Shown one piece after another: positions 5,334 to 42,382 of a DNA stretch of 64,000 bases (the stretch's first letter is position 1; every line of letters starts with the position of its first letter). Source of the DNA: a virus (lineage: Duplodnaviria; Heunggongvirae; Uroviricota; Caudoviricetes); the IMG/VR virus record IMGVR_UViG_3300036985_002287, positions 30,613 through 94,612 of that record. One strand, 5' to 3'. The notes under the pieces are model-generated. The model had not been told where the DNA came from, did no database searches, and saw nothing but the letters and a program-made list of their open reading frames with translations. The position numbers and the translations under genes are program-made.

Positions 5334-5768
5334 TTAAACCTTTAGGTATGCGATTTGTTCTTTGATTGCGTGTTTTTGGTCAGGCGTCAGCTTATCCCAT
5401 ACCATATTCGCAACAATGCGGCGATCATTGTATTCGTCTTGTGCTTTCTTAAGCTCGTTTAGCTTTCGTTCAAGTGATTCGAGTTCCCATTCTTCTGTAT
5501 TGTATGTAATGATATCATCAATATAGATTTTATTGGTATGATCTTCACACTCAAATCTAACAGAAGGTCCTGTCTCAGTCAAAGATACATGCGTAGATAC
5601 ACCGAGGTGGCATGCCATTGCTTGAGCATCCATCAACCGTTTAGGAATGGTTGCTTTATACATTGCGATATGCTCGGCCTCATTTAATTCGTATTGTCTA
5701 CGAGTCTCAGCTTCTTCAGCTAAACGCTTTGCTCTGCGGCCGGAAGGGTCGATTACTTTTGTTGCCAT
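5334..5768 (-). CDS. hypothetical protein (probably leaderless mRNA)
   Basis: 144 aa ORF; ATG 6 nt downstream of TATAAT. Confidence 0.6.
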   Translation of the reverse strand: MATKVIDPSGRRAKRLAEEAETRRQYELNEAEHIAMYKATIPKRLMDAQAMACHLGVSTHVSLTETGPSVRFECEDHTNKIYIDDIITYNTEEWELESLERKLNELKKAQDEYNDRRIVANMVWDKLTPDQKHAIKEQIAYLKV

Positions 5769-5774
5769 GTGTAT

Positions 5775-5803
5775 ATTATAGTTGATTCGCTATAAAGAGT
5801 CAA
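5775..5803 (-). promoter_or_regulatory. promoter TTGACT-N17-TATAAT, 6 nt from ATG
   Basis: agtcaa 5798-5803, attata 5775-5780; ATG at 5768. Confidence 0.7.
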
Positions 5804-5808
5804 CAGGA

Positions 5809-6015
5809 TTATTTTAATAATTCCAATCCAAGCCGTCTAATTTCAGCAATGTCTTCGTCACTGTATTTGTCTTCGTCAAACCAACCATAGAAACCCTGAT
5901 GTGTTACTTCATTATCCATCCAGCGTTCTATCTGACCATTTAAGAACACCCTGAAACAACCTTCGTCTGTATCGATATACGCAATCTTTTCTACAAACTT
6001 ACTAATAATTTTCAT
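5809..6015 (-). CDS. hypothetical protein
   Basis: 68 aa ORF; 4-nt overlap upstream. Confidence 0.5.
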   Translation of the reverse strand: MKIISKFVEKIAYIDTDEGCFRVFLNGQIERWMDNEVTHQGFYGWFDEDKYSDEDIAEIRRLGLELLK

Positions 6016-6218
6016 TTTACTTTCCTCGGTTTCGGGAAATATCCTTCGGCAAGGTCGTCAGTGATAGAATTCATAAAGCGTGTCATACTTTCGACATCGC
6101 CGTGTGCCTGGAAAAATTTCTTCTTGGCACCGTCGGCAAACCGTGTAACAGTGATATGAAGATACTTATCGATGTCTTCAGTAACTTCAAAATCAAACAG
6201 TGTCATTAATTTCTGCAT
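6012..6218 (-). CDS. hypothetical protein
   Basis: 68 aa ORF. Confidence 0.5.
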   Translation of the reverse strand: MQKLMTLFDFEVTEDIDKYLHITVTRFADGAKKKFFQAHGDVESMTRFMNSITDDLAEGYFPKPRKVK

Positions 6219-6651
6219 CTTCGGCCTTTAGTTTTCTAAGTCTCAGAACTTCTTTTGTTTCGCCCTTGCTCTTCTTACCATTGCAGGGAGAGCACATAAT
6301 TTGCGTATTGGTAAGATCGTCTGCACCACCCAATGCCCTTGCTTTGATATGATCATGAGTGAATAGAATCTCCTCACCATCACGTACACCATATAGGTTG
6401 AGGTGCCAGGAATCTTGTCCAGGAGATTGCTCCACAGCGAAGAATGTAGCTTCCAAATCGCAGCATACGCACTTCATACCTTTAGCACTCAATCCAGCAC
6501 GAGCAAATGTTCTCATACGGCGAGAGGATACACCTACCCAAATGCCGGATGATCGTTGGATACGGACTCGCTTTTCTTTCCAATGTGTTTTCACATAAGG
6601 AATAATTTCAGAAATGGGTATTACTTCGGATCGAAGGTATCTTTGTGTCAT
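6193..6651 (-). CDS. HNH endonuclease
   Basis: FTHDHIKARALGGADDLTNTQIMCSPCNGKKS = HNH motif; Cys pairs upstream. Confidence 0.8.
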   Translation of the reverse strand: MTQRYLRSEVIPISEIIPYVKTHWKEKRVRIQRSSGIWVGVSSRRMRTFARAGLSAKGMKCVCCDLEATFFAVEQSPGQDSWHLNLYGVRDGEEILFTHDHIKARALGGADDLTNTQIMCSPCNGKKSKGETKEVLRLRKLKAEDAEINDTV

Positions 6652-6657
6652 GCTACT

Positions 6658-6685
6658 ATTATAACATAAGATATAGAAAAGACAA
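6658..6685 (-). promoter_or_regulatory. promoter TTGTCT-N16-TATAAT, 6 nt from ATG
   Basis: attata 6658-6663; weaker -35; ATG at 6651. Confidence 0.5.
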
Positions 6686-6692
6686 ATAGGTA

Positions 6693-6730
6693 GCAGTCGC
6701 GAATGAAAAATTGTTAATCATTCCACTGCC
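6693..6730. repeat. GGCAGTGG...TTCGCGACTGC hairpin element, copy 1
   Basis: gcagtcgcgaa...ccactgcc; related copies at 12314-12362 and 12156-12177. Confidence 0.45.
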
Positions 6731-6809
6731 TGTGCTTTGGTTCTTATGGGTTTAGGATGCTATTTTATAGCAGACGCCCGTAATCCTTTCGGATACCTGC
6801 CCTCACACC

Positions 6810-7697
6810 TTAAATTATATTCTTTGCAACAGAGTCCACGATTACTTTCATATGCTTCGGACCTATATCTACACTCTCCGAAAAATCAATTACGAAGTCT
6901 TTTCTTGTTAGTGGATCTTCGAGATATTCTTTAACTAATTTGTTCCAAAATACTAAATTTTCTTGTCGAGCATCTTTAGGAAGCACAATACAATACCCAT
7001 CTGCATCTTGCCATAGTGGATAAACTTTATTTAGAATAGGAACGAATTCCGAATCGTGTAAAGGTTTTCTATTGCTCAAAGCAAGTAATCGTAACTTTCC
7101 TGCATCTATCATCGGCTTTGCAAGTATCAACGGAAGTATAGCAACGTCGACATGACCACCCATTACATCTGTCATTAACGGTGCACCACCTTTATATGCG
7201 ACCAATGTGGGTGGCCGCCTTCCATTTTTAAGATCTGTAAACTTGAATAGTTCTTCCATTAGAATCTTTTGTGCTGGTGCTCCATAGCCAAATGATTTTT
7301 TGGTGTCTACTTTGCTCAACTCGTTTTGAACTTCTGACAACGATTGTAGGCTATTAGCAGACCCAGTTACAAGTGCAAAGATCGACGTTCTTATCATAGA
7401 TACATATTCAAATTGATAATTAGGGTTCTTATTTTGATAGACTGCTACAGTAGCCACAGTACCAAAACCGATTGTGCTGTCGTCGGCAGAAGCAACTTCT
7501 CCCATCCCTATTAAGCCGTCTGCACCACTTTTATAATTTGCAATAATATTGATTCCTCGTGAATCGGCATATTTTTGAAAATGTCGAAAGGCAATATCGG
7601 CGCCGCCGCCTGGCGGAAATGGTATAATGGCTTTATATGGGTCGGCGTGAGCAATGGCGCATATTAAAATTAACGCTGCGATTATAATTTTTCTCAT
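6810..7697 (-). CDS. TctC/Bug-family periplasmic solute-binding protein (tripartite tricarboxylate transporter receptor)
   Basis: Signal peptide MRKIIIAALILICAIAHA; PFPPGGGADI..., YKGGAPLMTDVMGGHVDV, AGKLRLLAL family signatures. Confidence 0.8.
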   Translation of the reverse strand: MRKIIIAALILICAIAHADPYKAIIPFPPGGGADIAFRHFQKYADSRGINIIANYKSGADGLIGMGEVASADDSTIGFGTVATVAVYQNKNPNYQFEYVSMIRTSIFALVTGSANSLQSLSEVQNELSKVDTKKSFGYGAPAQKILMEELFKFTDLKNGRRPPTLVAYKGGAPLMTDVMGGHVDVAILPLILAKPMIDAGKLRLLALSNRKPLHDSEFVPILNKVYPLWQDADGYCIVLPKDARQENLVFWNKLVKEYLEDPLTRKDFVIDFSESVDIGPKHMKVIVDSVAKNII

Positions 7698-8866
7698 GGT
7701 GTCTTATCGAACTGTCCTATGTTATAAAATCGAGAAAATATCGATTTTGTTGCAATTTTGTTACCTAGCGGATCTAAATCACAATACATGGCATCAATAT
7801 CATCCATCTCGGATGAATAATTATGGCGCCACGCTGCGATCGAATCTTTCAATTCTGGATGAGAATATAACCAGTAGTCCTTATCTTCTCTAAATACACT
7901 CTTAGGCTTCTCAGCCTGAAAGCGACTAAAATCCCAATCTTTATATATTATAGTACGAATAGCATGTTGCGCCAATTCTGCGGCAGCATGGGCTTGATCT
8001 TTTGTTTCTGTATCCCATTTTCTTTGAATGAGAGGTCTCATAGCAGGATTATTATTAAAATATTGGAATACTTGATAGGCCTGCTCGTACACTAATTCGG
8101 GCATATTGGGTGCCCAATAAAATAATTCTAATCCCTCTGTATTCTCGTGATAAGGTGTACTGACTGCAATTATACCATCATTAAATACCATACCAACATC
8201 ACCTTCGTCGTCGGCTACTACAATCGGTTTATCGACCCCCCATATCTCTGCAACCCGCTTACCTGCAGATAACCACTTTTTCTCGTTTTCGGAGAATGTC
8301 TGCATACGCATAAGATTTGCTGCCGAGTGCAGATGCTGTTGTGTTTCAAATAGTGAATCCTTAAAGTATTCAGGACTACATTTATCGACCCATTCGGCAA
8401 CTTCGATTTTTATTTCTGGATGATTTTGTGCAAGCCATTCCAGATCTTTTTTAATCACAAGATCCCATTCACTCATGAAATTGTAGGCGCTCTTGTCATC
8501 TGATCTGACCCGGTGTAGTGGTTGCGCCTTCATGGGCCAGCGAACAAATATACAATCCAGTTTTATATTATTTTTTAAGAAAGTATTCAGAACAGTCCAG
8601 CTATCGCTACCTCCACTGTAATATAACACGAGGTAATCATATGAATCCCTTATCTGTTGAGCTCTTTCTTTATATAATGTTTCTAACGGAGTTTTTCCTA
8701 ATATAGATTTATCGAAATTTAACCATGTATTAAAGAAATAGGAATAGTGTACCCGAGTTTTACTTTTCGATGCCTGCACTAATGCTTCGATCTTATTATA
8801 GTATTTTACATACTTCCCGGCATCATTCTGTGCCCACCATTCTCCATTCTTGTATAAATGTTTCAT
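7694..8866 (-). CDS. PP-loop (SGGxDS) ATP pyrophosphatase-family protein
   Basis: LVLYYSGGSDSWTVL PP-loop motif about 85 aa from N-terminus; 390 aa; ATGA overlap with downstream TctC gene. Confidence 0.55.
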   Translation of the reverse strand: MKHLYKNGEWWAQNDAGKYVKYYNKIEALVQASKSKTRVHYSYFFNTWLNFDKSILGKTPLETLYKERAQQIRDSYDYLVLYYSGGSDSWTVLNTFLKNNIKLDCIFVRWPMKAQPLHRVRSDDKSAYNFMSEWDLVIKKDLEWLAQNHPEIKIEVAEWVDKCSPEYFKDSLFETQQHLHSAANLMRMQTFSENEKKWLSAGKRVAEIWGVDKPIVVADDEGDVGMVFNDGIIAVSTPYHENTEGLELFYWAPNMPELVYEQAYQVFQYFNNNPAMRPLIQRKWDTETKDQAHAAAELAQHAIRTIIYKDWDFSRFQAEKPKSVFREDKDYWLYSHPELKDSIAAWRHNYSSEMDDIDAMYCDLDPLGNKIATKSIFSRFYNIGQFDKTP

Positions 8867-10050
8867 TACGGTATAATCTCCACAAAATCGTATATTGATG
8901 CAGTAGTTACTAATTGTTTATCTTCTACCGATAATTTACTGAACCATTTTACTGGATCACCTTCTGCCATCCGTCTGCCTAAATATTTAACTAATTCGCA
9001 AACGGGCTCGACTACTTCTGTACGATAGCTATCATTCTTAAGGACATAAGCTATATGCAAATTCTTCATGCAGTTACCACGACACCATTCCACGGCTTCA
9101 CATCTATGGCATGGCATATCTGGATGCATCTGCAAAGGGCTATGTGTTAAAGTATTATCGGTAATGGAACCATGCTGCATATCGGGCACCCATGTCATAT
9201 CTGTACACGCAAATATTTTTCCATCAGGGCTTATATTAACTGCATTAGTTGAAGACCGACACTGTGCTTTACCCGAACATTGTGCAGCAGCCGCACCAGG
9301 CACCGCCATGTTACGCGCAATGCCCATTAATGGTACAATAGGGTAGACACCGTCATAGGAATAGAATCTATCTACCAATTGGTCGATCACTCGTTTTTTT
9401 GCTTCCATATGTTCGGGGTAATATACACCTTTTTGTTGAGCAAATTGAAAATGCACCCAATCAAATGTTTCTAATAATTTATCGAAAGCTTCAGAAGGTA
9501 AGTCTGGATCACACCAAGTAACTCTTGCAGTCAGTGTACCTGTTACCCTGGACTGTATTGCTCCTACATTTTTCATAATGTTAGCAAATACATTCTTACC
9601 ACGATACTTATTCGTTATTTGTTCGGTACCATCTATCGATATAAGGAAATTTGTAAAGCGTGATAGCACATCGTCATCTATTTTATTCAATAGTGTGCCA
9701 TTTGTTATAATTTGATATTCCGCAAAAGGAAACCGATCCATAACTTCTGTTATGAACGGCCTGTTCATTAACGGCTCGCCGCCAAAGAATGTGAAATAGA
9801 TATCCTTATCAGACAAGTGAGTATCAACAAATGTCTCTAATTCGTCTAAAGAATATGTAGGTTTTCCTTGAGATGAGAGAATATCTCCTTCGCCTAACAC
9901 ACAGTAAGAACAACTAAGATTGCACTTCAGTGTAGTAGATATCTGGATTTCAACTCTGTTACCACTAATTGCTGGCAGAATTACTGTATCCATGCTCTTT
10001 CTATTATCGATCAACTTCTGTTTTAATAAAATTTGCAAGTTTTGCAGCAT
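8866..10050 (-). CDS. radical SAM enzyme with C-terminal SPASM-like Cys cluster
   Basis: CNLSCSYC (CxxxCxxC), FGGEPLMN, ITNGTLL, C-terminal CxxC...C...C (CHRCEAVEWCRGNC); start may be ATG 9993 (MDTVIL). Confidence 0.8.
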   Translation of the reverse strand: MLQNLQILLKQKLIDNRKSMDTVILPAISGNRVEIQISTTLKCNLSCSYCVLGEGDILSSQGKPTYSLDELETFVDTHLSDKDIYFTFFGGEPLMNRPFITEVMDRFPFAEYQIITNGTLLNKIDDDVLSRFTNFLISIDGTEQITNKYRGKNVFANIMKNVGAIQSRVTGTLTARVTWCDPDLPSEAFDKLLETFDWVHFQFAQQKGVYYPEHMEAKKRVIDQLVDRFYSYDGVYPIVPLMGIARNMAVPGAAAAQCSGKAQCRSSTNAVNISPDGKIFACTDMTWVPDMQHGSITDNTLTHSPLQMHPDMPCHRCEAVEWCRGNCMKNLHIAYVLKNDSYRTEVVEPVCELVKYLGRRMAEGDPVKWFSKLSVEDKQLVTTASIYDFVEIIP

Positions 10051-10216
10051 CCTCGGGAGATAGAATAAGTTCGGTCATCACCCGTTCATTAGTTGGATCT
10101 AATGCTGTATCGAATGTAGATAGGAATCGTAGTTGATATTCATTTGATCGAGGATTAGCATCACGCATCTCTACATAGACTGAATACGATCCGTTTGTAC
10201 TAAGAAGTTGTTTCAT
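10004..10216 (-). CDS. hypothetical protein
   Basis: 70 aa ORF immediately upstream of radical SAM gene. Confidence 0.45.
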   Translation of the reverse strand: MKQLLSTNGSYSVYVEMRDANPRSNEYQLRFLSTFDTALDPTNERVMTELILSPEDAAKLANFIKTEVDR

Positions 10217-10413
10217 CGATCGCCTTCGAATGCGGCCTCCGCCGCCATTACTAAATTGTCATAACCGATGTCATACAATTCGGCAGGATCTAATTCATTC
10301 AGCTCTTCTTCTGTCATATCAAGTCCGTCGTCCCAGCAACCTTCTGTAGCATAGAAGCCATCATCCATGTCGCCTTCGACTACAACGCTATTCCAATCAA
10401 CTTCTTTACTCAT
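10213..10413 (-). CDS. small highly acidic protein
   Basis: 66 aa, D/E-rich (EGDMDDGFYATEGCWDDGLDMTEEELNELD); AGGAG SD. Confidence 0.5.
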   Translation of the reverse strand: MSKEVDWNSVVVEGDMDDGFYATEGCWDDGLDMTEEELNELDPAELYDIGYDNLVMAAEAAFEGDR

Positions 10414-10757
10414 GTTTTACTCCTGTGTATTATATTGAAATACACTGGCAATACTGAGGAGCCAGTTCCGCAGGCAAATACGAGTTCTCGTAGATGAATG
10501 CACCTGGAGCCATTTTCATACCAATATACTTCAATATGATCACAAATAAAAGTGTTCTGGCGACTCCACCACAAAGTCCCAGAACCGGGCTATTAATCCA
10601 TTCATCTAATATCTGTCACGTTTGGCCAAATTAGAACTGACCTACGATTTTTCCAGGCTCCCCTACAAGGGGACTATGAGGCTGATCGTATGCGTACCCG
10701 GCAACTATGGTCTCTTGCCTAACCCACTTCACATAACGGAAAAGTGTACTCCGGGTC

Positions 10758-10961
10758 CTATTTTGAAGAACTTGTATCTTGTTCTAATAATCGTTCTTCA
10801 TATTCTTCTTCGGTCAACGAGTGACTACCATTACAATAACCTGTGGTACTACGACCACATCCGCATGGTTGTTTGTGGTCTGTGCCAAAAATCATATCCC
10901 ATCTCTGCGAGTATTCCTCGTTAGAAACACTCCGGGGTCTTTGCTTACTTCCCTTACTCAT
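10758..10961 (-). CDS. hypothetical protein
   Basis: 67 aa; CGCG...GYCNGSH Cys/His cluster. Confidence 0.5.
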   Translation of the reverse strand: MSKGSKQRPRSVSNEEYSQRWDMIFGTDHKQPCGCGRSTTGYCNGSHSLTEEEYEERLLEQDTSSSK

Positions 10962-11053
10962 TATTATCTTATCCTTTTAAAATTGCGATACTGTGCTTCA
11001 TCCTGATCAGGGCCTATACACAGTGGTGCTCCCGTCTTTCAACATCGCAAACT

Positions 11054-11138
11054 TGGTGCGGCTGGCCGGACTCGAACCGGCACACCTTTCGGCGAGAGAT
11101 TTTAAGTCTCTTGTGTCTACCAATTTCACCACAGCCGC
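11054..11138 (-). tRNA. tRNA-Leu (anticodon TAA), CCA encoded
   Basis: GCGGCTGTGGTGAAATTGGTAGACACAAGAGACTTAAAATCTCT-long variable arm-GCCGGTTCGAGTCCGGCCAGCCGCACCA; class II cloverleaf. Confidence 0.9.
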
Positions 11139-11168
11139 AGTATTCACTAATAAGTATTTATTATATAC

Positions 11169-11501
11169 TTATTCATAGTATATGTCAATATAGGCCAAGG
11201 CATCCATTTCTTCTTGCAGTGCAGTGGCAACGGATTCCTTCACACGCAGCGGATCATTAATCACAACTTCGCGAACCTTATTTGCGATCGAGTCGCGACC
11301 ATTTAGGTACGCAATTAGTCGACCGGATGCAATCGCTCGGCCAACCTTCTTATTGAATACATCAGTTGTATTACACCGAGCAATGGAAACAAGAACCTTA
11401 TTGTTATCGGCTGGCAGAATTGCAATTGTGGCGCCACCACGCGAACTCATTTCCATGTCCATGTTGAAGTACCGATAATGCATAAATTCTAGCTTATTCA
11501 T
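11169..11501 (-). CDS. hypothetical protein
   Basis: 110 aa ORF; AAGGAA SD. Confidence 0.55.
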   Translation of the reverse strand: MNKLEFMHYRYFNMDMEMSSRGGATIAILPADNNKVLVSIARCNTTDVFNKKVGRAIASGRLIAYLNGRDSIANKVREVVINDPLRVKESVATALQEEMDALAYIDIYYE

Positions 11502-11538
11502 TGTGTTCCTTTGTGTGTTAAAGCGTTTATAAGTTTAT

Positions 11539-11567
11539 ATTTTACAGTAAGGCAAGCTGCCTGTCAA
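11539..11567 (-). promoter_or_regulatory. promoter TTGACA-N17-TAAAAT
   Basis: tgtcaa 11562-11567; atttta 11539-11544. Confidence 0.55.
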
Positions 11568-11574
11568 CTATCTT

Positions 11575-12102: not shown

Positions 12103-12109
12103 ACTTCCT

Positions 12110-12138
12110 ATTATATCTTAAATAGGAGTATGAGTCAA
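12110..12138 (-). promoter_or_regulatory. promoter TTGACT-N17-TATAAT, 7 nt from ATG
   Basis: agtcaa 12133-12138; attata 12110-12115; ATG 12102. Confidence 0.65.
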
Positions 12139-12155
12139 TAGGAATTAGAATAAGC

Positions 12156-12362: not shown

Positions 12363-12400
12363 GGTAATGTTTCTTGACTATCCACATCACCTTTTAAAAA

Positions 12401-36470: not shown

Positions 36471-36487
36471 ATCCGATCCTTTGTCCT

Positions 36488-36516
36488 ATTATAGTACAGA
36501 GTTTAAAACTAGTCAA
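36488..36516 (-). promoter_or_regulatory. promoter TTGACT-N17-TATAAT
   Basis: agtcaa 36511-36516; attata 36488-36493. Confidence 0.65.
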
Positions 36517-37439
36517 TCTTTTAGATCTACCTTGTTCACAACAAAAGGCTCTATTTCCTTAAACTCGGTTTCAGTGGCCTGGTAGAATTTCCATTCATTT
36601 AATTCGACACAAGTTAATCCAGCCCATTTCTTCGGCGCCACACCATGCTGCGAATATCCGCCTGTATTCGACCAGCGACATTGCCATGCGCCGGTATCGA
36701 TACAAGTCTGCCCTACTATAGTAATTGGTTGATGTAATGTTGTATGGCCACAGATGATGTGTGATAGCTCATCATTAAACATACCAGTCATGTCGTTATA
36801 TTTAATTACTCTGACTATCTTATCTCTATTACTTAAATCGCGTTCATACATCTCGTAGAATATACATCTATGCCATGTAAGTGAATCACCTTCATAACAT
36901 GGAACAGTTGCTATTTTTCTTACGTCATCCGGGTCAGATAAAATTTCATCCGAAAGAGGTACCCGTACCTCCGGGAATTCTGCGTGAATGATATGAAACT
37001 TTTTACCATTCTTTACATCTACTGTAATAAGGTAAGGCAATTCCTCTACAAGTGGCAGTAGATCAAACAGGGCAACACTATGATCGGAAGGTATCAGTGC
37101 CGGATTCTTTTTATCGTTTATTGCTTCTATTCCCCATTGTCCACCATTATTAAACCACATACTATCAGTCCCGTGCGGCCAGTGGAATTTTTCAAGCATC
37201 ATCTGTTCATGATTACCTAACACAGCATGAAACCAAGGCTCTCTAATTAGTTCCAAACATTTGAGATGGTCGGGACCTCGGTCGACCAAGTCACCAACGG
37301 AAATCATACGGTCGATGGTAGTATCGAAATTAATATTCTTTAGCAAATTCTGAAGCACATCGTAGCATCCGTGGAGGTCTCCGATCACGAAATCGCGACC
37401 TAATAAATTCGTCTCTAATGTCTTTAATGCATCCTTCAT
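36513..37439 (-). CDS. Ser/Thr protein phosphatase-family metallophosphoesterase (lambda PP / ApaH-like)
   Basis: GDLHGCYD, GDLVDRGP, GNHE motifs in order. Confidence 0.8.
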   Translation of the reverse strand: MKDALKTLETNLLGRDFVIGDLHGCYDVLQNLLKNINFDTTIDRMISVGDLVDRGPDHLKCLELIREPWFHAVLGNHEQMMLEKFHWPHGTDSMWFNNGGQWGIEAINDKKNPALIPSDHSVALFDLLPLVEELPYLITVDVKNGKKFHIIHAEFPEVRVPLSDEILSDPDDVRKIATVPCYEGDSLTWHRCIFYEMYERDLSNRDKIVRVIKYNDMTGMFNDELSHIICGHTTLHQPITIVGQTCIDTGAWQCRWSNTGGYSQHGVAPKKWAGLTCVELNEWKFYQATETEFKEIEPFVVNKVDLKD

Positions 37440-37705
37440 TCTTTAATTCCCCATACTTTCTTTGTAGCTTCTAATGTAAATGCACCACTCGTTGTAATGC
37501 GAGTTAAAAAATCTTCCTCTTCCTGTGTTAGTACGGGAATCGGTCTAATCTCATACCAAAATTCGTAAGAATCGTTTTTACCGAAATCTTCCTCTTGTCT
37601 TGCACACTTATCGCAAAATGGATGATCGCCCGCAAACTGAGTTGAACGAATCCATACAGTGGGAGCATTGCATATTATACAAAATTCCTCTTTTATTTTT
37701 GTCAT
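37436..37705 (-). CDS. small zinc-ribbon-like protein
   Basis: 89 aa; CIIC...CDKC. Confidence 0.5.
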   Translation of the reverse strand: MTKIKEEFCIICNAPTVWIRSTQFAGDHPFCDKCARQEEDFGKNDSYEFWYEIRPIPVLTQEEEDFLTRITTSGAFTLEATKKVWGIKE

Positions 37706-37980
37706 TCTTCAACTCCGAAGTGTTCACTAATGCTATCTCTGATTGTTTGGGCAGTATCATCATTATCCCAATTAAACTCCAATGCGTTCTTATGTTCTTG
37801 GTGGACAATACCCAAACATTCCCGAACAATAAGTTCGGCGAACTTTTCCGGGCTAAACTTAGTTTCGGTAGTAGTTACATAACGATAAGGCGGCCGATCA
37901 TTATCCCATGCACCCGAAATTTCCCGAGTTTCGATTGTGATAATAGATTGTTTTTCAAGTTCTTGCAGTCGTTTATTCAT
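37702..37980 (-). CDS. MNE / FAELIVRE / HFGVEE paralog
   Basis: MNKRLQELEKQ...FAELIVRECL...EHFGVEE; start trimmed (ATGA overlap). Confidence 0.5.
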   Translation of the reverse strand: MNKRLQELEKQSIITIETREISGAWDNDRPPYRYVTTTETKFSPEKFAELIVRECLGIVHQEHKNALEFNWDNDDTAQTIRDSISEHFGVEE

Positions 37981-38303
37981 TTTATTCCTGCTAATACATT
38001 TAACACGTTTTCCTGATCTGCCCATGCTTTTTCCTGATCAACCCTAATCTTCAGATACTCGCGTATGTGTCTGCGATTGCTCCAAATAAACTTTTCGTAT
38101 TTTAACAAACTTTTAGCACACCCTTCGCATCCATAAACAAATAACATACCGGCGAGTTCGATATAACCAAAAGAATCATCGCTATCCTCCGGAAAGCTAT
38201 GATCCTTACCGCAGCCACAATGCACCCACGGGCCACCACCACCCAGGCCAGCATCCCACATCATATCACTGGCTCTATCGGTGGGTTCTGTATAATTTGG
38301 CAT
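37977..38303 (-). CDS. hypothetical Cys-rich protein
   Basis: 108 aa; HCGCG...CEGC. Confidence 0.5.
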   Translation of the reverse strand: MPNYTEPTDRASDMMWDAGLGGGGPWVHCGCGKDHSFPEDSDDSFGYIELAGMLFVYGCEGCAKSLLKYEKFIWSNRRHIREYLKIRVDQEKAWADQENVLNVLAGIK

Positions 38304-38497
38304 TAATCGTCCCCGTATAAAGCATCGCCCAAACTTTGCTCGAGCTCGCTGATTTTATCTTCCAGTCGCTCAACTACTTTATCCTTTTCGTCCTCGAGGC
38401 TAGATAGTTGTTCCTGCAGATATGTTATCTGTCCACGCAGACGAATATTTTCCTGTTGTAGTTCAAATATTCGTTCGTCCTTCAAGTCATCCATCAT
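38303..38497 (-). CDS. small coiled-coil protein
   Basis: 64 aa, heptad-like acidic helix. Confidence 0.45.
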   Translation of the reverse strand: MMDDLKDERIFELQQENIRLRGQITYLQEQLSSLEDEKDKVVERLEDKISELEQSLGDALYGDD

Positions 38498-38973
38498 TTT
38501 ATAAGTCCTTTGCGCTTTCTGCGTTCAATTTCTTTCTTATATTCTTTCGGAGACCATTGCTGCCCGTTGATCCAATATTCTTTTGGATGTCCTGTAGCAT
38601 CAACTGCCGGCCCATCCAGACGATGCAATTTTCCATCTACAAACCAAAACCTACTCTGCTTATGTCTATATGCGGGGCCGTCTTCACGATGAAGTTCACC
38701 GTCTTTATACCAACCTTCGAAATCATACTTTCTACTAATATGTGATGGACCAAAGAGTCTATGAAGTACCTTCTTTTCTGCGAAGGCCGATTCGGGTTGT
38801 GGACTACTCGATTTACGATATATAACATCCATGGCACCTGTGCCAGATCCCCACCAGTCTTCCCACAGCTTACCACGCACATAATAATGCGGTCTAACAG
38901 GGTTCATAAATTCTTTATCGATGGTAAGAGCTTCAATTAGCCGATCACCTTCTCTATCGTCGTGCTTAGTCAT
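38494..38973 (-). CDS. MORN-repeat-like protein
   Basis: Repeats GELHREDGPA / GKLHRLDGPA / WINGQ; start uncertain (38973, 39033 or GTG 39039). Confidence 0.5.
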   Translation of the reverse strand: MTKHDDREGDRLIEALTIDKEFMNPVRPHYYVRGKLWEDWWGSGTGAMDVIYRKSSSPQPESAFAEKKVLHRLFGPSHISRKYDFEGWYKDGELHREDGPAYRHKQSRFWFVDGKLHRLDGPAVDATGHPKEYWINGQQWSPKEYKKEIERRKRKGLIK

Positions 38974-38989
38974 ATTATTGTATTTTACA

Positions 38990-39334
38990 CTATCTGTCAA
39001 AGGTAGAGTATGTCTCCAAGAACCGTTCGACATCGCCACATAATTTTATCGTAATAGCATCACTCTCTGAAAATAATATCAATCTCTTTTTTGTAACAAA
39101 ATAAGGATAATCTATCTTCGACATCGCCCGTTGATGTCTGGATTTAATTGTATCTGGCAATTCGAATGAATAAACAGTAAAGATAGACTTAACAATAATA
39201 AAGCCGGTCAGTGACAATCTCACACCATCAGGATGATGAAATAAGAGTTTATTGAGTTGGTTATCGTCTAACGATGCTGCCGTCTCATGCTTACTCCTGA
39301 CCTCGGTAAATATAGCCGCTTTAAGTGGTAACAT
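38990..39334 (-). CDS. hypothetical protein
   Basis: 114 aa ORF. Confidence 0.5.
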   Translation of the reverse strand: MLPLKAAIFTEVRSKHETAASLDDNQLNKLLFHHPDGVRLSLTGFIIVKSIFTVYSFELPDTIKSRHQRAMSKIDYPYFVTKKRLILFSESDAITIKLCGDVERFLETYSTFDR

Positions 39335-39341
39335 AAACTAT

Positions 39342-39566
39342 TTATAATAACCAACGAACAATACCTACAAGATTTATAACAACAAAGAAATAACTTTGAT
39401 ATATTATAGATTTAGAAGCATCCGAATCTTTTAATAAATAAATTGTTGCTATGTTAGATAAAAGAAATAACAGGAATGCCCAGCCTGACACAGAAATTTT
39501 CAGTGCCATGAGCATCGAGCCTGCGACCGCTCCCCAGAATGATGTGTGATCTAAAAATGATTTCAT
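39342..39566 (-). CDS. small membrane protein (leaderless)
   Basis: 74 aa, three hydrophobic helices; ATG 5 nt after TATAAT. Confidence 0.5.
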   Translation of the reverse strand: MKSFLDHTSFWGAVAGSMLMALKISVSGWAFLLFLLSNIATIYLLKDSDASKSIIYQSYFFVVINLVGIVRWLL

Positions 39567-39571
39567 ATTAC

Positions 39572-39600
39572 ATTATAACACATGATAAGATAAATAGCAA
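39572..39600 (-). promoter_or_regulatory. promoter TTGCTA-N17-TATAAT, 5 nt from ATG
   Basis: tagcaa 39595-39600; attata 39572-39577. Confidence 0.55.
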
Positions 39601-39601
39601 T

Positions 39602-39979
39602 ATGAAGATTAAAGAAGCTATATTAGAACCTGCAATATCTCACTTAATTCAGCTTTGTAAAGAGGAATTAGGTATAACTGAATTGCCACACATCCATCTT
39701 ATAAGTAATCAATCCTTTATTGAATCCGGAGATAAGAAATCTTTCGGTGAGTTCAATGGAAACCACGTTAAGGTAATTACAAAAGGTAGACACCCATTGG
39801 ATGTCATGCGAACACTTGCCCATGAACTAACACATTGGAAACAACAGTTAGAAGGTGACGTGATGGATGGCGAAGACGGCAGTGATGTAGAAAATGAAGC
39901 TAATAGCACTGCCGGGGTAATTATGCGTAAATTCGCAGAAAAATATCCCGACTCTTTCTTAAGTTCTATACCAGATTAA
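39602..39979 (+). CDS. HExxH motif protein (putative small metallopeptidase)
   Basis: LAHELTHWKQQ; start at MKIKEAIL; plus strand. Confidence 0.45.
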   Translation: MKIKEAILEPAISHLIQLCKEELGITELPHIHLISNQSFIESGDKKSFGEFNGNHVKVITKGRHPLDVMRTLAHELTHWKQQLEGDVMDGEDGSDVENEANSTAGVIMRKFAEKYPDSFLSSIPD

Positions 39980-40269
39980 TCATCTGCCTCGGTACACTGT
40001 ACTCCAGTAACTAATTTAAATACAGAAAAATCACTTGTCTTGAACATCTTGTTTAATCTCTCTGCTAGATTAAAAGCATGGCCAGAGTTAGAAAAGGATA
40101 CCTTCTTATACTTAGGACCAGGATAAGAAATTAAGTGGCTTAGTGTACGAAGATTTATAGGCTTTTCTTGATAAAATACAGCATAGATAGCATCAGCATT
40201 CAACACTTGTTCTGCCTTGTATTGTTTGTTAACATTCTCTAAAAGTATGGTGGGTTTTGGTCTCGCCAT
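39976..40269 (-). CDS. hypothetical protein
   Basis: Start trimmed to MARPKPT; 4-nt tail overlap with convergent gene. Confidence 0.45.
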   Translation of the reverse strand: MARPKPTILLENVNKQYKAEQVLNADAIYAVFYQEKPINLRTLSHLISYPGPKYKKVSFSNSGHAFNLAERLNKMFKTSDFSVFKLVTGVQCTEADD

Positions 40270-40353
40270 GTAAGTATTCTCCAATAATATGTATATATTT
40301 ATCAAAAAATACACTTTTAATGAGTTTCTAAAATATCAGATAAATAATAGATT

Positions 40354-40596
40354 ATGAAATTACAAGAATTAATCCGAGAAAACAGATTAGAGCAGGCCCG
40401 ATATAATGCCGAATTCGACAAGGCTAACGGTCAGTGGGAACCTAGCCGTCCCAAAATGATACCTACTTATTCAGTCTTTATAAATGGTAAACACTGGAGA
40501 GATTTTGAATCGGAAGATGCAGCTATGAAATCTGCAAATACAGTGTATAACAAGAAACCCCGTTGCAGGGTAGATGTTATGCCGTATAAAAGGTAA
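40354..40596 (+). CDS. hypothetical protein
   Basis: 80 aa plus-strand ORF ending in the convergent hairpin. Confidence 0.45.
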   Translation: MKLQELIRENRLEQARYNAEFDKANGQWEPSRPKMIPTYSVFINGKHWRDFESEDAAMKSANTVYNKKPRCRVDVMPYKR

Positions 40597-40612
40597 GACC
40601 CGAAGGTCTTAC
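40593..40612. terminator. hairpin between convergent genes
   Basis: GTAAGACC-CGAA-GGTCTTAC (8 bp) overlapping both stop codons; T tract only in minus sense. Confidence 0.5.
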
Positions 40613-40809
40613 TATAGATGCCCGCCGTCTATTATTCGAGTTGTTTCGGCGGGTGCATTGATAACCACTTCGAGTGGTTTTTCTTTTTGTATTAGAAGAC
40701 CCTCAATCTCTTTCAACAATTGCTTCGCTTGTGTCATGGACATCCTGTATTCCACAACATCTTTTTTAACGTTCTGTAAACGTAATTTGAATTTATTTAT
40801 TTCCTGCAT
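40612..40809 (-). CDS. hypothetical protein
   Basis: 65 aa ORF. Confidence 0.45.
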   Translation of the reverse strand: MQEINKFKLRLQNVKKDVVEYRMSMTQAKQLLKEIEGLLIQKEKPLEVVINAPAETTRIIDGGHL

Positions 40810-41299
40810 TGTCTGAATTCTTTTGTTTGCGATTTTTTGTCAAGGCACTTCTCATCTCTAATTCTGTCTTAAATGGGCCTGCATATTCGTATGTTTCTAA
40901 GGTAGAAAATTTAGGACAAAATGCGGGCATCCAATTCTTAGGAAAATGCAAGCAATAATAACCTGCACTATAGTACACATTGCTAGTCGCTTTTTTACTA
41001 AAAAGAGGTAACTTATTGCCTTTTATTAATACCTCGGTAGGACTATCGAAATCTACTGGGTAGCCGTTTATGAAATAATTAGTTACACTTTCTTTCTCTG
41101 TCTTATCAACTACATTTTCAAACACATCTTCATTAAAGAATTTGTTAACTTCTTTTCTATCAACGAATTGTTGTTTTACTCCCTTAACCATTAATACATA
41201 TTGGTTACGGATTTCAGTTAATAATCCTACACGACTATCTTCTGTATCACTAATCACCAGCCAGCTGGTTTCCGTGATCGGTTTTAATTTTACGGACAT
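40793..41299 (-). CDS. hypothetical protein
   Basis: 168 aa ORF. Confidence 0.55.
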   Translation of the reverse strand: MSVKLKPITETSWLVISDTEDSRVGLLTEIRNQYVLMVKGVKQQFVDRKEVNKFFNEDVFENVVDKTEKESVTNYFINGYPVDFDSPTEVLIKGNKLPLFSKKATSNVYYSAGYYCLHFPKNWMPAFCPKFSTLETYEYAGPFKTELEMRSALTKNRKQKNSDNAGNK

Positions 41300-41310
41300 T
41301 CTTTTTCCTT

Positions 41311-42348
41311 TTAAGAAATGTATTTAGCACGAAGCATAGGCATAAAATCTACAGAGTTATCGCCTATCTTCTTTAATCCCCATCTACCACAAAATTTCAT
41401 GAAATGGTGTCCGATCTCAATTGCTGGAACTGCTTTTCTTCCAGTCTCCTCTGCAATGATTTGTAGACATTCTATCTTGATATCGTCCGGTATCTGTGTT
41501 AAGTCTATCAGCATACGATTAAATTCATAACGCTCTCTAACGATTTGTTCTTGTTGGTTATGGTCTACCCATTTCTGCAACATAAAATTATGCCAGCTAA
41601 ATCCTTTGGCTGTCTGATCGCCGAATGCTTCGCGGATACCCACACTCGACTTTGTGCCTTTTTCCCGAACACCGGGGTAGGCACTAAAAATATTGTCTGT
41701 CTTATCCCCGCGGACGCATTTTAAGAACAAAGCATATTCATACCACTTATCTTCACACACAAAGGTAGGATTTCGTTTTCCGGGCTTAATCTTAGCATCG
41801 GATGACAAGATGAATTCGAGTCTCTTCCCGTTATCGTCATAAACTCCATCTTGTTTTATCTGGATGTCCTTGACAGGATCATACAACATAACACCGGGGT
41901 ACCGTAATAACTGAAAGAAATCTGAGTCTGAGCTGATTACTATGTGTTTATCGTCTGGGTGTGCCTCGATAAACATAGCAATCATGTCATCTGCTTCTGC
42001 ATGTTTGTTCTGCAATACAGTTACATTAGTCTTGGTGTCTAAATACTCTACAAGATCATCGAATGCTTCTGTAAGAATGGCATGATCTTCTTGTTCTTTT
42101 TGTGTCAGCAATGCTCTGGCCGCTGTACGATTACCCTTGTAATCGGGGTAGACGTGTTTTCTCCACGAGTGACCTTCTATAAAGAATACAGTATGAGTAC
42201 CATTAAATTTATTGTACTCTTTTTTCATACTGCTAAGAATAAGGTGCAATGCCATCCCTATCATACTATCGATGCCCAATGCAGGATTGGTCATTTTAAT
42301 TTGGCGGTGAAATAGATTTGCGCCGTCTGTATGGATAAATGTGTGCAT
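41311..42348 (-). CDS. 5'-3' exonuclease / flap endonuclease (T4 RNase H / PolA-N family)
   Basis: DGANLFHR, HAEADDMIA, SSDSDFFQL acidic-cluster motifs; leaderless start. Confidence 0.75.
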   Translation of the reverse strand: MHTFIHTDGANLFHRQIKMTNPALGIDSMIGMALHLILSSMKKEYNKFNGTHTVFFIEGHSWRKHVYPDYKGNRTAARALLTQKEQEDHAILTEAFDDLVEYLDTKTNVTVLQNKHAEADDMIAMFIEAHPDDKHIVISSDSDFFQLLRYPGVMLYDPVKDIQIKQDGVYDDNGKRLEFILSSDAKIKPGKRNPTFVCEDKWYEYALFLKCVRGDKTDNIFSAYPGVREKGTKSSVGIREAFGDQTAKGFSWHNFMLQKWVDHNQQEQIVRERYEFNRMLIDLTQIPDDIKIECLQIIAEETGRKAVPAIEIGHHFMKFCGRWGLKKIGDNSVDFMPMLRAKYIS

Positions 42349-42353
42349 GTCTG

Positions 42354-42382
42354 ATTATACTATATTTAAGGGTGACTGTCTA
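42354..42382 (-). promoter_or_regulatory. promoter TAGACA-N17-TATAAT, 5 nt from ATG
   Basis: tgtcta 42377-42382; attata 42354-42359; ATG 42348. Confidence 0.55.

What the first reader, a model, noticed from the sequence alone, without database searches (positions are those of the whole stretch)
5766..42382. Genome-wide set of near-consensus sigma70 promoters, with at least eight placed 5-7 nt from the ATG (systematic leaderless mRNAs)
About 25 intergenic sites read (-35)-N16/17-(-10) on the coding strand. Most -35 hexamers are TTGACA or TTGACT, with weaker variants such as TAGACA, TTGCAA, TTGCTA and TTGTCT. Most -10 hexamers are TATAAT, with a few TAAAAT, TACAAT or TACACT. Seven are perfect TTGACA-N17-TATAAT: 3104, 13509, 15070, 18852, 23206, 26208 and 26599. 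In eight cases the -10 hexamer ends only 5-7 nt before the start codon, at ATGs 5768, 6651, 12102, 15064, 16907, 18845, 39566 and 42348. Transcription should therefore begin at or within about a nucleotide of the AUG, with no Shine-Dalgarno sequence. The other promoters are followed by 17-40 nt leaders with clear AAGGA or AGGAG sites. Two such distinct architectures used repeatedly suggest two translational regimes for early genes.
Basis: partly seen in the sequence, partly recalled or inferred. Interest (0 to 1): 0.6.

Follow-up and report, generated by a model that had tools for sequence, protein, structure and literature searches.

The report
Leaderless genes in a giant phage
In this uncultured giant phage, about a third of the strong host-type promoters sit directly against the start codon, so those messages should have no leader and no ribosome-binding site; relatives keep the layout, but it is a new example of a known way to start translation.

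Summary
The window comes from an uncultured jumbo phage. Its relatives have contigs of 360-385 kb, and its DNA polymerase is about 43% identical to the nearest cultured phages. Nine perfect TTGACA-N16/17-TATAAT sites occur where 0.1 is expected, all on the coding (-) strand. About 26 strong sites head transcription units.

At all eight claimed genes the -10 hexamer ends 5-7 nt before an ATG. That ATG is the first start of the ORF and has no Shine-Dalgarno sequence. No promoter-to-ATG distance falls between 8 and 16 nt. Of the 15 units with a leader, 14 have an AAGGA- or GGAG-type site.

The start codons are supported by a domain boundary, signal peptides, homologue N-termini and independent gene calls. 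Relatives keep the same geometry while the spacer sequence changes. When a relative has a leader instead, a Shine-Dalgarno sequence appears. The excess is specific to ATG (48, against 2 at offsets 9-13).

A second motif, ATAAATA, resembles the T4 late promoter and shows the same split: 4-8 nt or 17-28 nt before the ATG.

No transcription start sites were mapped and the host is unknown. I rate this a new member of a known kind, of moderate interest.

The parts
5766..5803 (-). Leaderless unit 1: TTGACT (5803-5798), N17, TATAAT (5780-5775), 6 nt, ATG 5768. CDS 5334-5768, 144 aa, function unknown.
   Evidence: Geometry kept in L048, L049 and L050; L050 is 78% aa identical with a different spacer. 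An independent gene call gives the same 144-aa product.
6649..6685 (-). Leaderless unit 2: TTGTCT (6685-6680), N16, TGn-extended TATAAT (ends 6658), 6 nt, ATG 6651. CDS 6193-6651, 152-aa HNH endonuclease.
   Evidence: The same layout is found in L046 and L049. An independent gene call gives 152 aa.
12100..12138 (-). Leaderless unit 3: TTGACT, N17, TATAAT (ends 12110), 7 nt, ATG 12102. CDS 11575-12102, 175-aa SleB-like cell-wall hydrolase with an N-terminal signal peptide. A terminator-like hairpin lies just upstream at 12196-12176.
   Evidence: Conserved in L046 and L047.
15062..15098 (-). Leaderless unit 4: perfect TTGACA-N17-TATAAT (ends 15070), 5 nt, ATG 15064. CDS 14924-15064, 46-aa basic protein.
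   Evidence: The promoter and ATG are kept in L051, and four of the five codon changes I read at the 5' end of the ORF are synonymous.
16905..16942 (-). Leaderless unit 5: TAGACA, N17, TAAAAT (ends 16914), 6 nt, ATG 16907. CDS 16434-16907, 157 aa. There is no other in-frame start for 89 codons.
   Evidence: Homologues in L012, L014, L018, L021/22/28 and L042 (43-83% aa identity) also have a promoter 5-6 nt from their ATG.
18843..18880 (-). Leaderless unit 6: perfect TTGACA-N17-TATAAT (ends 18852), 6 nt, ATG 18845. CDS 18084-18845, 253-aa S11 D-Ala-D-Ala carboxypeptidase with a signal peptide.
   Evidence: The same geometry is present in 25 of 35 homologous loci (18 distinct sequences, 57-96% aa identity). 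L027 instead has a 16-nt stretch with GAGG.
39564..39600 (-). Leaderless unit 7: TTGCTA, N17, TGn-extended TATAAT (ends 39572), 5 nt, ATG 39566. CDS 39342-39566, 74-aa membrane protein that looks like the N-terminal part of PnuC.
   Evidence: Only 35 bp separate this ATG from the divergent + strand ATG at 39602. The arrangement is not kept in L002.
42346..42382 (-). Leaderless unit 8: TAGACA, N17, TATAAT (ends 42354), 5 nt, ATG 42348. CDS 41311-42348, 345-aa T4 RNase H / 5'-3' exonuclease.
   Evidence: The Pfam 5_3_exonuc_N domain begins at residue 8. Relatives have leaders with a Shine-Dalgarno sequence instead.
899..53362 (-). Sigma70-type promoters followed by a leader. Listed as -35 start to -10 end: 53362-53334, 44563-44535, 36516-36488, 32926-32898, 31335-31307, 26627-26599, 26236-26208, 25046-25018, 23234-23206, 19875-19847, 14125-14097, 13537-13509, 11567-11539, 2077-2050, 926-899. 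Two more drive RNA: 11188-11160 (tRNA-Leu) and 3132-3104 (a non-coding unit of about 1 kb).
   Evidence: Distances from the -10 to the ATG are 17-54 nt (about 82 nt for 14125), and 14 of 15 have an AAGGA/AGGAG/GGAG site.
58759..58818 (-). Terminator hairpin (58818-58795), then two copies of ATAAATA (58781-58775 and 58772-58766), 4 nt, ATG 58761. CDS 57625-58761, 378-aa protein with a sigma-70 region 4 domain.
   Evidence: ATAAATA followed by 4-7 nt and the ATG is kept in at least 24 relatives, with variable spacer sequence.
19258..19271 (-). ATAAATA (19271-19265), 4 nt, ATG 19260. CDS 18877-19260, 127 aa, function unknown.
   Evidence: The motif sits 4 nt (7 nt in L021/22/28) before the ATG in about 30 relatives (52-99% aa identity), while the sequence further upstream is not conserved.
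15976..39345 (-). Further ATAAATA motifs close to an ATG with no Shine-Dalgarno sequence. Motif start / ATG: 39345/39334 (4 nt), 33822/33807 (8 nt), 27410/27395 (8 nt), 23514/23501 (6 nt), 15989/15978 (4 nt; GGDEF protein).
   Evidence: The GGDEF site is kept in L011.
39590..39604 (+). ATAAATA (39590-39596), 5 nt, ATG 39602. CDS 39602-39979, 125 aa. It is divergent from unit 7 and lies back to back with it. A second + strand case is ATAAATA 40340-40346, 7 nt, ATG 40354.
   Evidence: ATAAATA-N5-ATG is kept in L002 and L003 at 50-58% aa identity.

Best explanation
The window is an early-type region of an uncultured jumbo phage that relies on the host RNA polymerase. Near-consensus sigma70-type promoters stand at the head of about 26 short transcription units on one strand.

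In 8 of roughly 23 protein-coding units, the -10 hexamer ends 5-7 nt before the true ATG. The polymerase should therefore start on the A of the ATG, or within a nucleotide of it, and the mRNA has no 5' leader. Such mRNAs are translated by the known leaderless route. In that route the ribosome, probably as a 70S particle, recognises the 5'-terminal AUG together with IF2 and initiator tRNA, without Shine-Dalgarno pairing.

The remaining units have minimal leaders. These are about 11-34 nt once the 6 nt before the start site are subtracted, and they hold little more than an AAGGA/GGAG site.

A second promoter-like motif, ATAAATA, resembles the T4 late promoter and is used in the same two ways. 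The choice between no leader and a Shine-Dalgarno leader is therefore a general design feature of this phage clade. By inference it reflects a host that translates leaderless mRNA well.

What is shown: the geometry, the statistics, the start-codon validity and the conservation. What is inferred: the transcription start sites, the timing, the polymerase and sigma factor involved, and the route of translation.
For: 1. Promoter excess and strand bias. There are 9 perfect sites where 0.1 is expected, all on the coding strand.

2. A gap in the distance distribution. In the window, 8 units lie at 5-7 nt, none at 8-16 nt and 14 at 17-54 nt. In relatives' loci, after removing duplicates, 34 of 100 lie at 4-8 nt and 3 at 9-14 nt.

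3. The excess is specific to ATG. At offsets 4-8, codons that open at least 60 sense codons are ATG 48, GTG 3 and TTG 2. At offsets 9-13 they are ATG 2, GTG 4 and TTG 2. This fits the strict AUG requirement of leaderless initiation (PMC4611024).

4. A pyrimidine precedes the A in 35 of 42 such sites, against 33 of 70 other genes (Fisher p = 1.4e-4). From my own knowledge, this matches the usual pyrimidine(-1)/purine(+1) preference at start sites.

5. The start codons hold up. The exonuclease domain starts at residue 8 of the 42348 product. The 18845 and 12102 products begin with signal peptides. Homologue N-termini coincide with the ATG. No downstream in-frame start has a Shine-Dalgarno sequence. 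Independent gene calls give the same 152-aa and 144-aa products. Four of the five codon changes I read at the 5' end of the 46-aa ORF are synonymous.

6. Conservation with turnover. The peptidase gene keeps the layout in 25 of 35 loci, down to 57% aa identity, with varying spacer sequence. L027 has a 16-nt stretch between the -10 and the ATG, with GAGG. The RNase H gene is leaderless here but has a promoter, leader and AAAGAGG in L004-L010. Other genes are leaderless only in relatives.

7. Only 35 bp separate the divergent ATGs at 39566 and 39602, and that stretch holds both promoters.

8. ATAAATA is bimodal too. In relatives it lies 4-5 nt before the ATG in 30 cases and 17-28 nt in about 35, far more than for permuted heptamers. 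In 606 kb around the DNA polymerase genes of the clade, 25 lie at 4-8 nt and 1 at 9-13 nt. A terminator lies directly upstream of the 58761 unit.
Against: No transcription start site, RNA or ribosome data exist for this phage, and it has no cultured relative. The host is unknown. In E. coli-like hosts, leaderless mRNAs are translated poorly.

Most of the eight promoters have no terminator upstream. Read-through transcripts from upstream units would therefore also carry these ORFs, now internal and without a Shine-Dalgarno sequence.

Two of the eight ORFs are small (46 and 74 aa), and the 74-aa one looks like a fragment of a PnuC-like gene. The RNase H and PnuC-like arrangements are not conserved.

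In the unselected sample around the DNA polymerase genes, the sigma70-type enrichment at 4-8 nt is weak (9 against 4), because that region has few such promoters.

For ATAAATA followed by 4 nt, T4 geometry (motif at -13 to -6; PMC7892883) would place +1 on the U of the AUG. The start site would have to lie 1 nt closer to the motif than in T4.
Confidence: 0.8

Rival explanations
1. The promoters are real, but the eight proteins are made mainly from longer read-through transcripts. Initiation would be Shine-Dalgarno-independent, for example through ribosomal protein S1 binding to A/U-rich sequence. The promoter lies against the ATG only because the genome is compact.
For: Most leaderless promoters lack an upstream terminator, and the upstream genes end 30-160 nt away. 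Some internal genes in the window also lack a clear Shine-Dalgarno sequence.
Against: Compaction does not explain a sharp 5-7 nt peak with an empty 8-16 nt range. It does not explain the ATG-only excess or the pyrimidine at -1. It also does not explain why relatives gain a Shine-Dalgarno sequence exactly when a leader is present. The 58761 unit sits directly after a terminator.
Confidence: 0.1
2. The annotated ATGs are not the true starts. Translation begins at downstream in-frame codons, so the transcripts have ordinary leaders.
For: Downstream in-frame ATG, GTG or TTG codons exist in six of the eight ORFs. The 46-aa and 74-aa ORFs have no functional annotation.
Against: No alternative start has a Shine-Dalgarno sequence. 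The exonuclease domain, including its N-terminal catalytic strand, starts at residue 8. Two products begin with signal peptides. The 16907 ORF has no alternative start for 89 codons, and the 46-aa ORF has none at all. Homologue N-termini align to the ATG.
Confidence: 0.04
3. The -35/-10-like elements are read by a phage-encoded sigma factor, not by the host primary sigma. A candidate is the 378-aa protein with a sigma-70 region 4 domain at 57625-58761. The geometry, and so the leaderless outcome, would be the same, but the genes would not be 'early'.
For: A protein with sigma-70 region 4 is encoded in the window. A short CCTR context precedes many of the -35 hexamers, which may be specific to this phage clade.
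Against: The hexamers and their spacing are the textbook primary-sigma consensus, and two weaker -35 sites carry a TGn extended -10. The phage protein shows only region 4 and no detected region 2.
Confidence: 0.08
4. The matches are chance products of AT-rich intergenic DNA.
For: Weak 9-of-12 matches are not clearly above shuffles. TATAAT-N5-7-ATG alone occurs 13 times where 6 are expected.
Against: There are 9 perfect sites where 0.1 is expected, all on one strand. They lie at the heads of genes, and they are conserved in relatives.
Confidence: 0.01

Closest known systems
Leaderless mRNAs of bacteria and temperate phages (lambda cI from PRM, P2 gene V). The initiation route is reviewed in PMC4611024.
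   Same: The promoter -10 lies about 6-7 nt from an ATG. There is no 5' UTR and no Shine-Dalgarno sequence, and AUG is required.
   Different: In those phages it is a single regulatory gene each. Here it is about a third of the strong-promoter units of a lytic-type jumbo phage, covering enzymes and secreted proteins. The layout is conserved across a clade and used with two promoter motifs.
Near-consensus sigma70 early promoters of T4 and T5, and the RpoD-like early promoters predicted in Rak2-like jumbo phages such as CBB and GAP32 (PMC5259590).
   Same: There are many strong TTGACA/TATAAT promoters on the coding strand ahead of small early-type genes. An ATAAATA motif is present as a putative late promoter.
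   Different: Those descriptions do not report promoters lying against start codons. The present phage is only distantly related (DNA polymerase 38-43% identical).
Phages whose transcripts are largely leaderless because the host uses leaderless mRNAs widely. Examples from my own knowledge are Thermus phages such as P23-45 and actinobacteriophages. Host examples are in PMC4633059 and PMC4007540.
   Same: The phage makes systematic use of leaderless transcripts.
   Different: Here a Shine-Dalgarno sequence is clearly used by the other units (14 of 15), so the two modes coexist. The host is unknown and has a standard sigma70 consensus.
T4 late promoters (TATAAATA, read by gp55/gp33/gp45; PMC2988020, PMC7892883).
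   Same: The core is ATAAATA with no conserved -35. The motif often follows a terminator. In the units with a leader it lies 17-28 nt before the ATG, as it does in the Vibrio jumbo phage control (16-28 nt).
   Different: In this clade a large share of the motifs sit 4-8 nt from the ATG. I did not see this in the control sample and do not know of it in T4. No gp55 homologue was identified in the window.
Jumbo phages with mapped transcription start sites (phiKZ, AR9).
   Same: They have large genomes with many promoters.
   Different: phiKZ showed no leaderless transcripts (PMC8244752). AR9 has UTRs of 26-491 nt (PMC5312081). Both use their own RNA polymerases.

Membership tests
Leaderless mRNA | The transcript's 5' end coincides with the start codon, or lies within a few nt of it | not testable with these tools
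   This can only be predicted from geometry. The -10 ends 5-7 nt before the A, which places the A at the usual start-site distance of 6-8 nt from the -10. A pyrimidine occupies -1 in 35 of 42 sites.
Leaderless mRNA | The start codon is AUG; GUG and UUG do not substitute (PMC4611024) | tested here: met
   All 8 in the window are ATG. In window plus relatives, offsets 4-8 give ATG 48, GTG 3 and TTG 2, against ATG 2 at offsets 9-13.
Leaderless mRNA | No Shine-Dalgarno sequence and no room for one | tested here: met
   None of the 8 has a Shine-Dalgarno sequence at a usable spacing (the 7 nt before ATG 12102 read AGGAAGT, only 1 nt from the ATG). Of 15 units with a leader, 14 have one.
Leaderless mRNA | The promoter-proximal ATG is the real start of a real gene | tested here: met
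   Support comes from a domain boundary, signal peptides, homologue N-termini, mostly synonymous change in the 46-aa ORF and independent gene calls. It is weakest for the 74-aa ORF at 39566.
Sigma70-type promoter read by host RNA polymerase (phage early class) | -35 TTGACA and -10 TATAAT separated by 16-18 bp, more often than chance, on the coding strand ahead of genes | tested here: met
Sigma70-type promoter read by host RNA polymerase (phage early class) | Used by unmodified host holoenzyme early in infection | not testable with these tools
   No culture and no RNA data. The timing is inferred by analogy with T4, T5 and Rak2-like phages.
T4-type late promoter | (T)ATAAATA box about one helical turn before the start site, with no conserved -35 | tested here: inconclusive
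   The motif is conserved while upstream sequence is not. It is enriched over permuted heptamers and follows terminators. The start site is unknown, and the 4-nt spacing is 1 nt tighter than T4 geometry (PMC7892883).
T4-type late promoter | Dependence on gp55, gp33 and the sliding clamp; location ahead of late or structural genes | not tested
   No gp55-like protein was recognised among the window proteins scanned. Structural genes of this clade were not retrieved.

The most novel reading that the evidence does not exclude
Placing the promoter against the start codon could be a deliberate switch. Under this reading, only transcripts that start at the gene's own promoter would carry a 5'-terminal AUG and be translated. 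Read-through RNA from upstream units would carry the same ORF silently, because it has no Shine-Dalgarno sequence. Protein output would then be tied to the activity of one promoter class, sigma70-type or ATAAATA.

A stronger version is that the phage shifts host ribosomes towards leaderless initiation as part of takeover. That would favour a defined set of its own mRNAs.
Probability: 0.15. Interest if true: 0.7.

Novelty: new member of a known kind. Interest (0 to 1): 0.45.

Why it matters
The result gives a sequence-only case for a whole clade of uncultured 360-385 kb phages mixing leaderless mRNAs with minimal Shine-Dalgarno leaders, under two promoter motifs. It has four practical consequences.

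- Gene callers that expect a ribosome-binding site may misplace starts in these genomes.
- The layout is a usable signature for guessing host properties, namely efficient leaderless translation.
- It provides compact natural promoter-plus-start modules of about 35 bp.
- It offers a testable example of coupling translation to promoter choice.

It does not reveal a new mechanism.

Tried and rejected
- **Cultured relatives.** Megablast of 6 kb against cultured phages found nothing. tblastn of the conserved 127-aa protein found nothing. The peptidase gave only distant hits of 28-34%. No cultured relative is available for the transcription start sites to be looked up.
- **RNA families.** Rfam at gathering thresholds found only the three tRNAs.
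- **5' RNA structure.** I asked whether leaderless genes have less structured 5' coding ends. They do not: mean folding energy of the first 45 nt is -3.7 kcal/mol, against -3.8 for other genes. There is a slight C enrichment, but the sample is too small.
- **TATAAT-N5-7-ATG alone.** As a bare pattern it is only about 2-fold above shuffles (13 against 6). The signal needs the -35 and the ORF context.
- **Host assignment.** Homologues of the TctC-like gene are 25-32% identical and mostly from Burkholderiales, which may just reflect where that family is common. This is a weak hint only.
- **Exact-protein look-up.** The 174-aa protein at the edge of the window is not on record.
- **Site excluded.** I dropped the ATAAATA at 15312 from the leaderless list. 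Its ATG overlaps the upstream stop codon (ATGA), so translational coupling explains it.
- **Site not counted.** The promoter at 208-180 has an ATG 6 nt after the -10, but the ORF is only 7 codons long.
- **Unselected sample.** Around the DNA polymerase genes of the clade, ATAAATA is clearly bimodal, but the sigma70-type enrichment at 4-8 nt is weak, because that region has few such promoters.

Full report
**What the window is**

Nearly all long ORFs lie on the - strand. GC content is 36-45%, and GC skew is negative in all but one 2-kb bin. The proteins include:
- a T4-type family B DNA polymerase (53368-56316);
- an ATP-dependent DNA ligase;
- a T4 RNase H / 5'-3' exonuclease;
- HNH and NUMOD3 homing endonucleases;
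- a Lon-like protease;
- radical SAM proteins;
- sugar epimerases.

The polymerase is at most 43% identical to those of cultured jumbo phages: Sinorhizobium phage Phosso, Agrobacterium phage Atu_ph07, Vibrio phage 2.275.O and the Rak2-like phages. Megablast against cultured phages finds nothing.

In IMG/VR the window matches contig 3300021602_000003 closely, with RNase H and DNA polymerase 100% identical. One ORF is only 93.8% identical, however, so the window is a close strain or a different assembly. About 50 relatives have polymerases 77-86% identical, and some of their contigs are 360-385 kb. The window is therefore part of an uncultured jumbo-phage clade.

**Checking the observation**

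TTGACA-N16-18-TATAAT occurs 9 times where 0.10 is expected, always on the - strand. It missed 11160-11188, which drives tRNA-Leu, and 899-926.

At a threshold of 10 matches out of 12 there are 39 sites on the - strand and 18 on the + strand. About 26 of the - strand sites stand at the head of a gene, a tRNA or a non-coding unit. Weak 9-of-12 matches are not above shuffles, so only the strong sites carry the signal. The strong sites are concentrated in roughly 1-45 kb. 'Genome-wide' therefore cannot be claimed from this window.

All eight promoter-proximal ATGs have the stated spacing of 5, 6 or 7 nt. Each is the first start codon of its ORF. A scan of all predicted gene starts found no other start that combines a good -10 and a good -35 at 4-8 nt.

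**Is it more than chance?**

- The distance from the end of the -10 to the first ATG of an ORF of at least 40 codons has a gap. In the window, 8 lie at 5-7 nt, none at 8-16 nt and 14 at 17-54 nt. In relatives' loci, after removing duplicates, 34 of 100 lie at 4-8 nt and 3 at 9-14 nt.
- The excess is specific to ATG. At offsets 4-8, the codons that open at least 60 sense codons are ATG 48, GTG 3 and TTG 2. At offsets 9-13 they are ATG 2, GTG 4 and TTG 2. Leaderless initiation is known to need AUG specifically (PMC4611024).
- The base before the A is a pyrimidine in 35 of 42 such sites, against 33 of 70 other genes (p = 1.4e-4). This fits the usual start-site preference, which I state from my own knowledge. 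The sites in relatives are not all independent, so I treat this as supporting evidence only.
- A Shine-Dalgarno-like site is present in 14 of 15 units with a leader and in none of the 8.

**Are the ATGs the true starts?**

- The 42348 product begins MHTFIHTDGANLFHR, and the Pfam 5'-3' exonuclease domain aligns from residue 8.
- The 18845 product (S11 peptidase) and the 12102 product (SleB-like hydrolase) begin with typical signal peptides.
- The 16907 ORF has no other in-frame start for 89 codons. The 46-aa ORF at 15064 has none at all.
- No alternative start in any of the eight has a Shine-Dalgarno sequence.
- In a related contig, the 46-aa ORF keeps its promoter and ATG, and four of the five codon changes I read at its 5' end are synonymous.
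- Independent gene calls on a Logan contig give the same 152-aa and 144-aa products.
- The weakest case is the 74-aa ORF at 39566, which looks like the N-terminal part of a PnuC-like protein.

**Comparative evidence**

The S11 peptidase gene has the layout '-35, N16-17, -10, 4-7 nt, ATG' in 25 of 35 homologous loci. These represent 18 distinct sequences and go down to 57% aa identity. The spacer and the bases before the ATG differ freely among them. One relative (L027) instead has 16 nt between the -10 and the ATG, with GAGG.

The 16907, 5768, 12102, 6651 and 15064 genes keep the layout in the relatives that were found.

The RNase H gene is leaderless only in this phage. L004-L010 have a promoter, a leader and AAAGAGG, and L002 has AGGAAG upstream. 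Conversely, several genes that have a leader or are translationally coupled here are leaderless in relatives. These include homologues of the 72-aa product at 18084 and of the product at 19530, and secreted proteins of about 160 aa.

So the leaderless layout is gained and lost gene by gene. A Shine-Dalgarno sequence appears when a leader is present and is absent when it is not. That pattern is what two interchangeable, functional initiation modes would produce.

**A second promoter-like motif behaves the same way**

ATAAATA, the core of the T4 late promoter TATAAATA, sits 4-8 nt before ATGs that lack a Shine-Dalgarno sequence. The ATGs are:
- on the - strand: 58761, 39334, 33807, 27395, 23501, 19260 and 15978;
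- on the + strand: 39602 and 40354.

It also sits 12-32 nt before other genes, for example 21387 and 63296. At 21387 a GGGAG site lies between the motif and the ATG.

Across relatives the distance is again bimodal, with 30 cases at 4-5 nt and about 35 at 17-28 nt. Eight permuted heptamers give far fewer cases. In 606 kb around the DNA polymerase genes of the clade, 25 lie at 4-8 nt, 1 at 9-13 nt and 32 at 19-30 nt.

Three genes show the conservation clearly:
- The 127-aa gene at 19260 keeps ATAAATA followed by 4 nt and the ATG in about 30 relatives (52-99% aa identity), while the sequence further upstream is not conserved.
- The gene for the 378-aa protein with sigma-70 region 4 (ATG 58761) keeps ATAAATA followed by 4-7 nt and the ATG in at least 24 relatives, with varying spacers. 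In the window it lies directly after a strong terminator.
- The divergent ATGs at 39566 and 39602 are only 35 bp apart. That stretch holds the sigma70-type promoter for one gene and ATAAATA-N5 for the other.

In a 50-kb sample of the cultured Vibrio jumbo phage 2.275.O, ATAAATA lies 16-28 nt from the ATG and never 8 nt or less.

Rak2-like phages have been reported to carry RpoD-like early promoters and ATAAATA late promoters (PMC5259590), with no mention of a leaderless placement.

In T4 P23 the box spans -13 to -6 (PMC7892883). A 5-nt spacer would then put +1 on the A of the ATG, while the common 4-nt spacer needs a start 1 nt closer to the motif. I therefore hold the leaderless reading of this class at about 0.6. 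Its identity as a 'late' promoter is untested.

**Mechanism**

Shown: the promoter geometry, its statistics, the validity of the start codons and the conservation.

Inferred: host RNA polymerase with its primary sigma factor starts at the A, within 1 nt. The resulting 5'-AUG mRNA is translated by the leaderless route, which depends on IF2, is antagonised by IF3 and probably uses 70S ribosomes (PMC4611024).

The units with a leader are also minimal. After subtracting the 6 nt before +1, several leaders are only about 11-12 nt long and start with or 1 nt before the AAGGA (36516 and 44563).

Because most leaderless promoters have no terminator upstream, read-through RNAs would carry the same ORFs without any ribosome-binding signal. 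One possibility is that the protein is made only when the gene's own promoter fires. That is speculation.

**Comparison with what is known, and novelty**

Leaderless mRNAs are well known. Examples are lambda cI and P2 gene V, and many genes in Actinobacteria and Deinococcus (PMC4633059, PMC4007540). From my own knowledge, Thermus phages also make many leaderless transcripts.

Among jumbo phages with mapped start sites, phiKZ had no leaderless transcripts (PMC8244752) and AR9 had UTRs of 26-491 nt (PMC5312081).

My literature searches found no description of systematic leaderless genes in T4-related or Rak2-related jumbo phages, or of ATAAATA boxes lying against start codons. I rate this a new member of a known kind. 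It is solid and conserved across a clade, but it is not a new mechanism.

**Limits**

There are no RNA data and no host. The TctC-like gene's homologues are mostly from Burkholderiales at 25-32% identity, which is a weak hint only. The samples of relatives used were centred on genes already known to be leaderless. The unselected sample confirms the ATAAATA pattern but is thin for sigma70-type sites.

Noticed in passing
window 2095-3132 (- strand): A perfect promoter (3132-3104) is followed by about 1 kb with no ORF of 40 aa or more on that strand, ending at a strong terminator (2124-2098). This looks like a long non-coding RNA unit. In relatives L048-L050 its aligned blocks are mostly 90-98% nt identical (two shorter blocks are 76-84%). 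The neighbouring 144-aa protein is only 78% aa identical in L050.
   Followed up: partly
window about 2455-2594 (- strand): A hammerhead ribozyme core (CUGAUGAG-UCCGGAAGGAC-GAAAC) lies inside that non-coding unit. It has a 10-bp stem III that encloses an insertion of about 70 nt, a possible stem I (ACACAA/UUGUGU) and a GUA cleavage site. Rfam Hammerhead_3 scores only 28 bits, below its threshold. The identical core occurs in clear hammerheads of six unrelated viral contigs.
   Followed up: partly
window 38990-39566 (- strand): A PnuC-like transporter appears split into a 74-aa ORF and a 114-aa ORF in different frames. The stop codon of the first lies inside the ATAAATA motif that precedes the second. 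L002 has the same two-ORF arrangement.
   Followed up: partly
window 15301-15978 (- strand): The phage encodes a GGDEF diguanylate cyclase (Pfam E = 6e-40) with a hydrophobic N-terminus. Its gene is preceded by ATAAATA, 4 nt and the ATG.
   Followed up: no
window 57625-58761 (- strand): A 378-aa protein has a sigma-70 region 4 domain but no detected region 2. Its gene lies directly after a terminator and two tandem ATAAATA boxes. It could be a phage transcription factor that regulates its own gene.
   Followed up: partly
window 13509-13537 and 11160-11188 (- strand): Two perfect sigma70-type promoters read TATAATAAATAC. An ATAAATA box therefore overlaps the -10, which may make them dual-class promoters.
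   Followed up: no
window, 4 bases 5' of many -35 hexamers (e.g. 926, 2077, 5803, 12138, 26627): A recurring CCTA or CCTG lies immediately upstream of TTGAC. This may be an extended -35 context specific to this clade.
   Followed up: no
window 11054-13366 (- strand): There are three tRNA genes: Leu-TAA, Met-CAT and Arg-TCT. tRNA-Leu begins 21 nt after the -10 of a perfect promoter.
   Followed up: no
window 180-208 (- strand): TTGACA-N17-CATAAT is followed after 6 nt by an ATG that opens only a 7-codon ORF. This is either a leaderless mini-ORF or a coincidence. The real downstream gene has a leader with AAGGA.
   Followed up: partly
window 6810-7697 (- strand): The phage encodes a TctC/Bug-family periplasmic solute-binding protein. 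Its bacterial homologues, at 25-32% identity, are mostly from Burkholderiales.
   Followed up: partly
window 6193-6651, 22578-23165, 23795-24997, 57044-57628 (- strand): There are four homing-endonuclease-type genes: three HNH and one NUMOD3. One of them lies two small ORFs (about 0.7 kb) upstream of the DNA polymerase gene.
   Followed up: no
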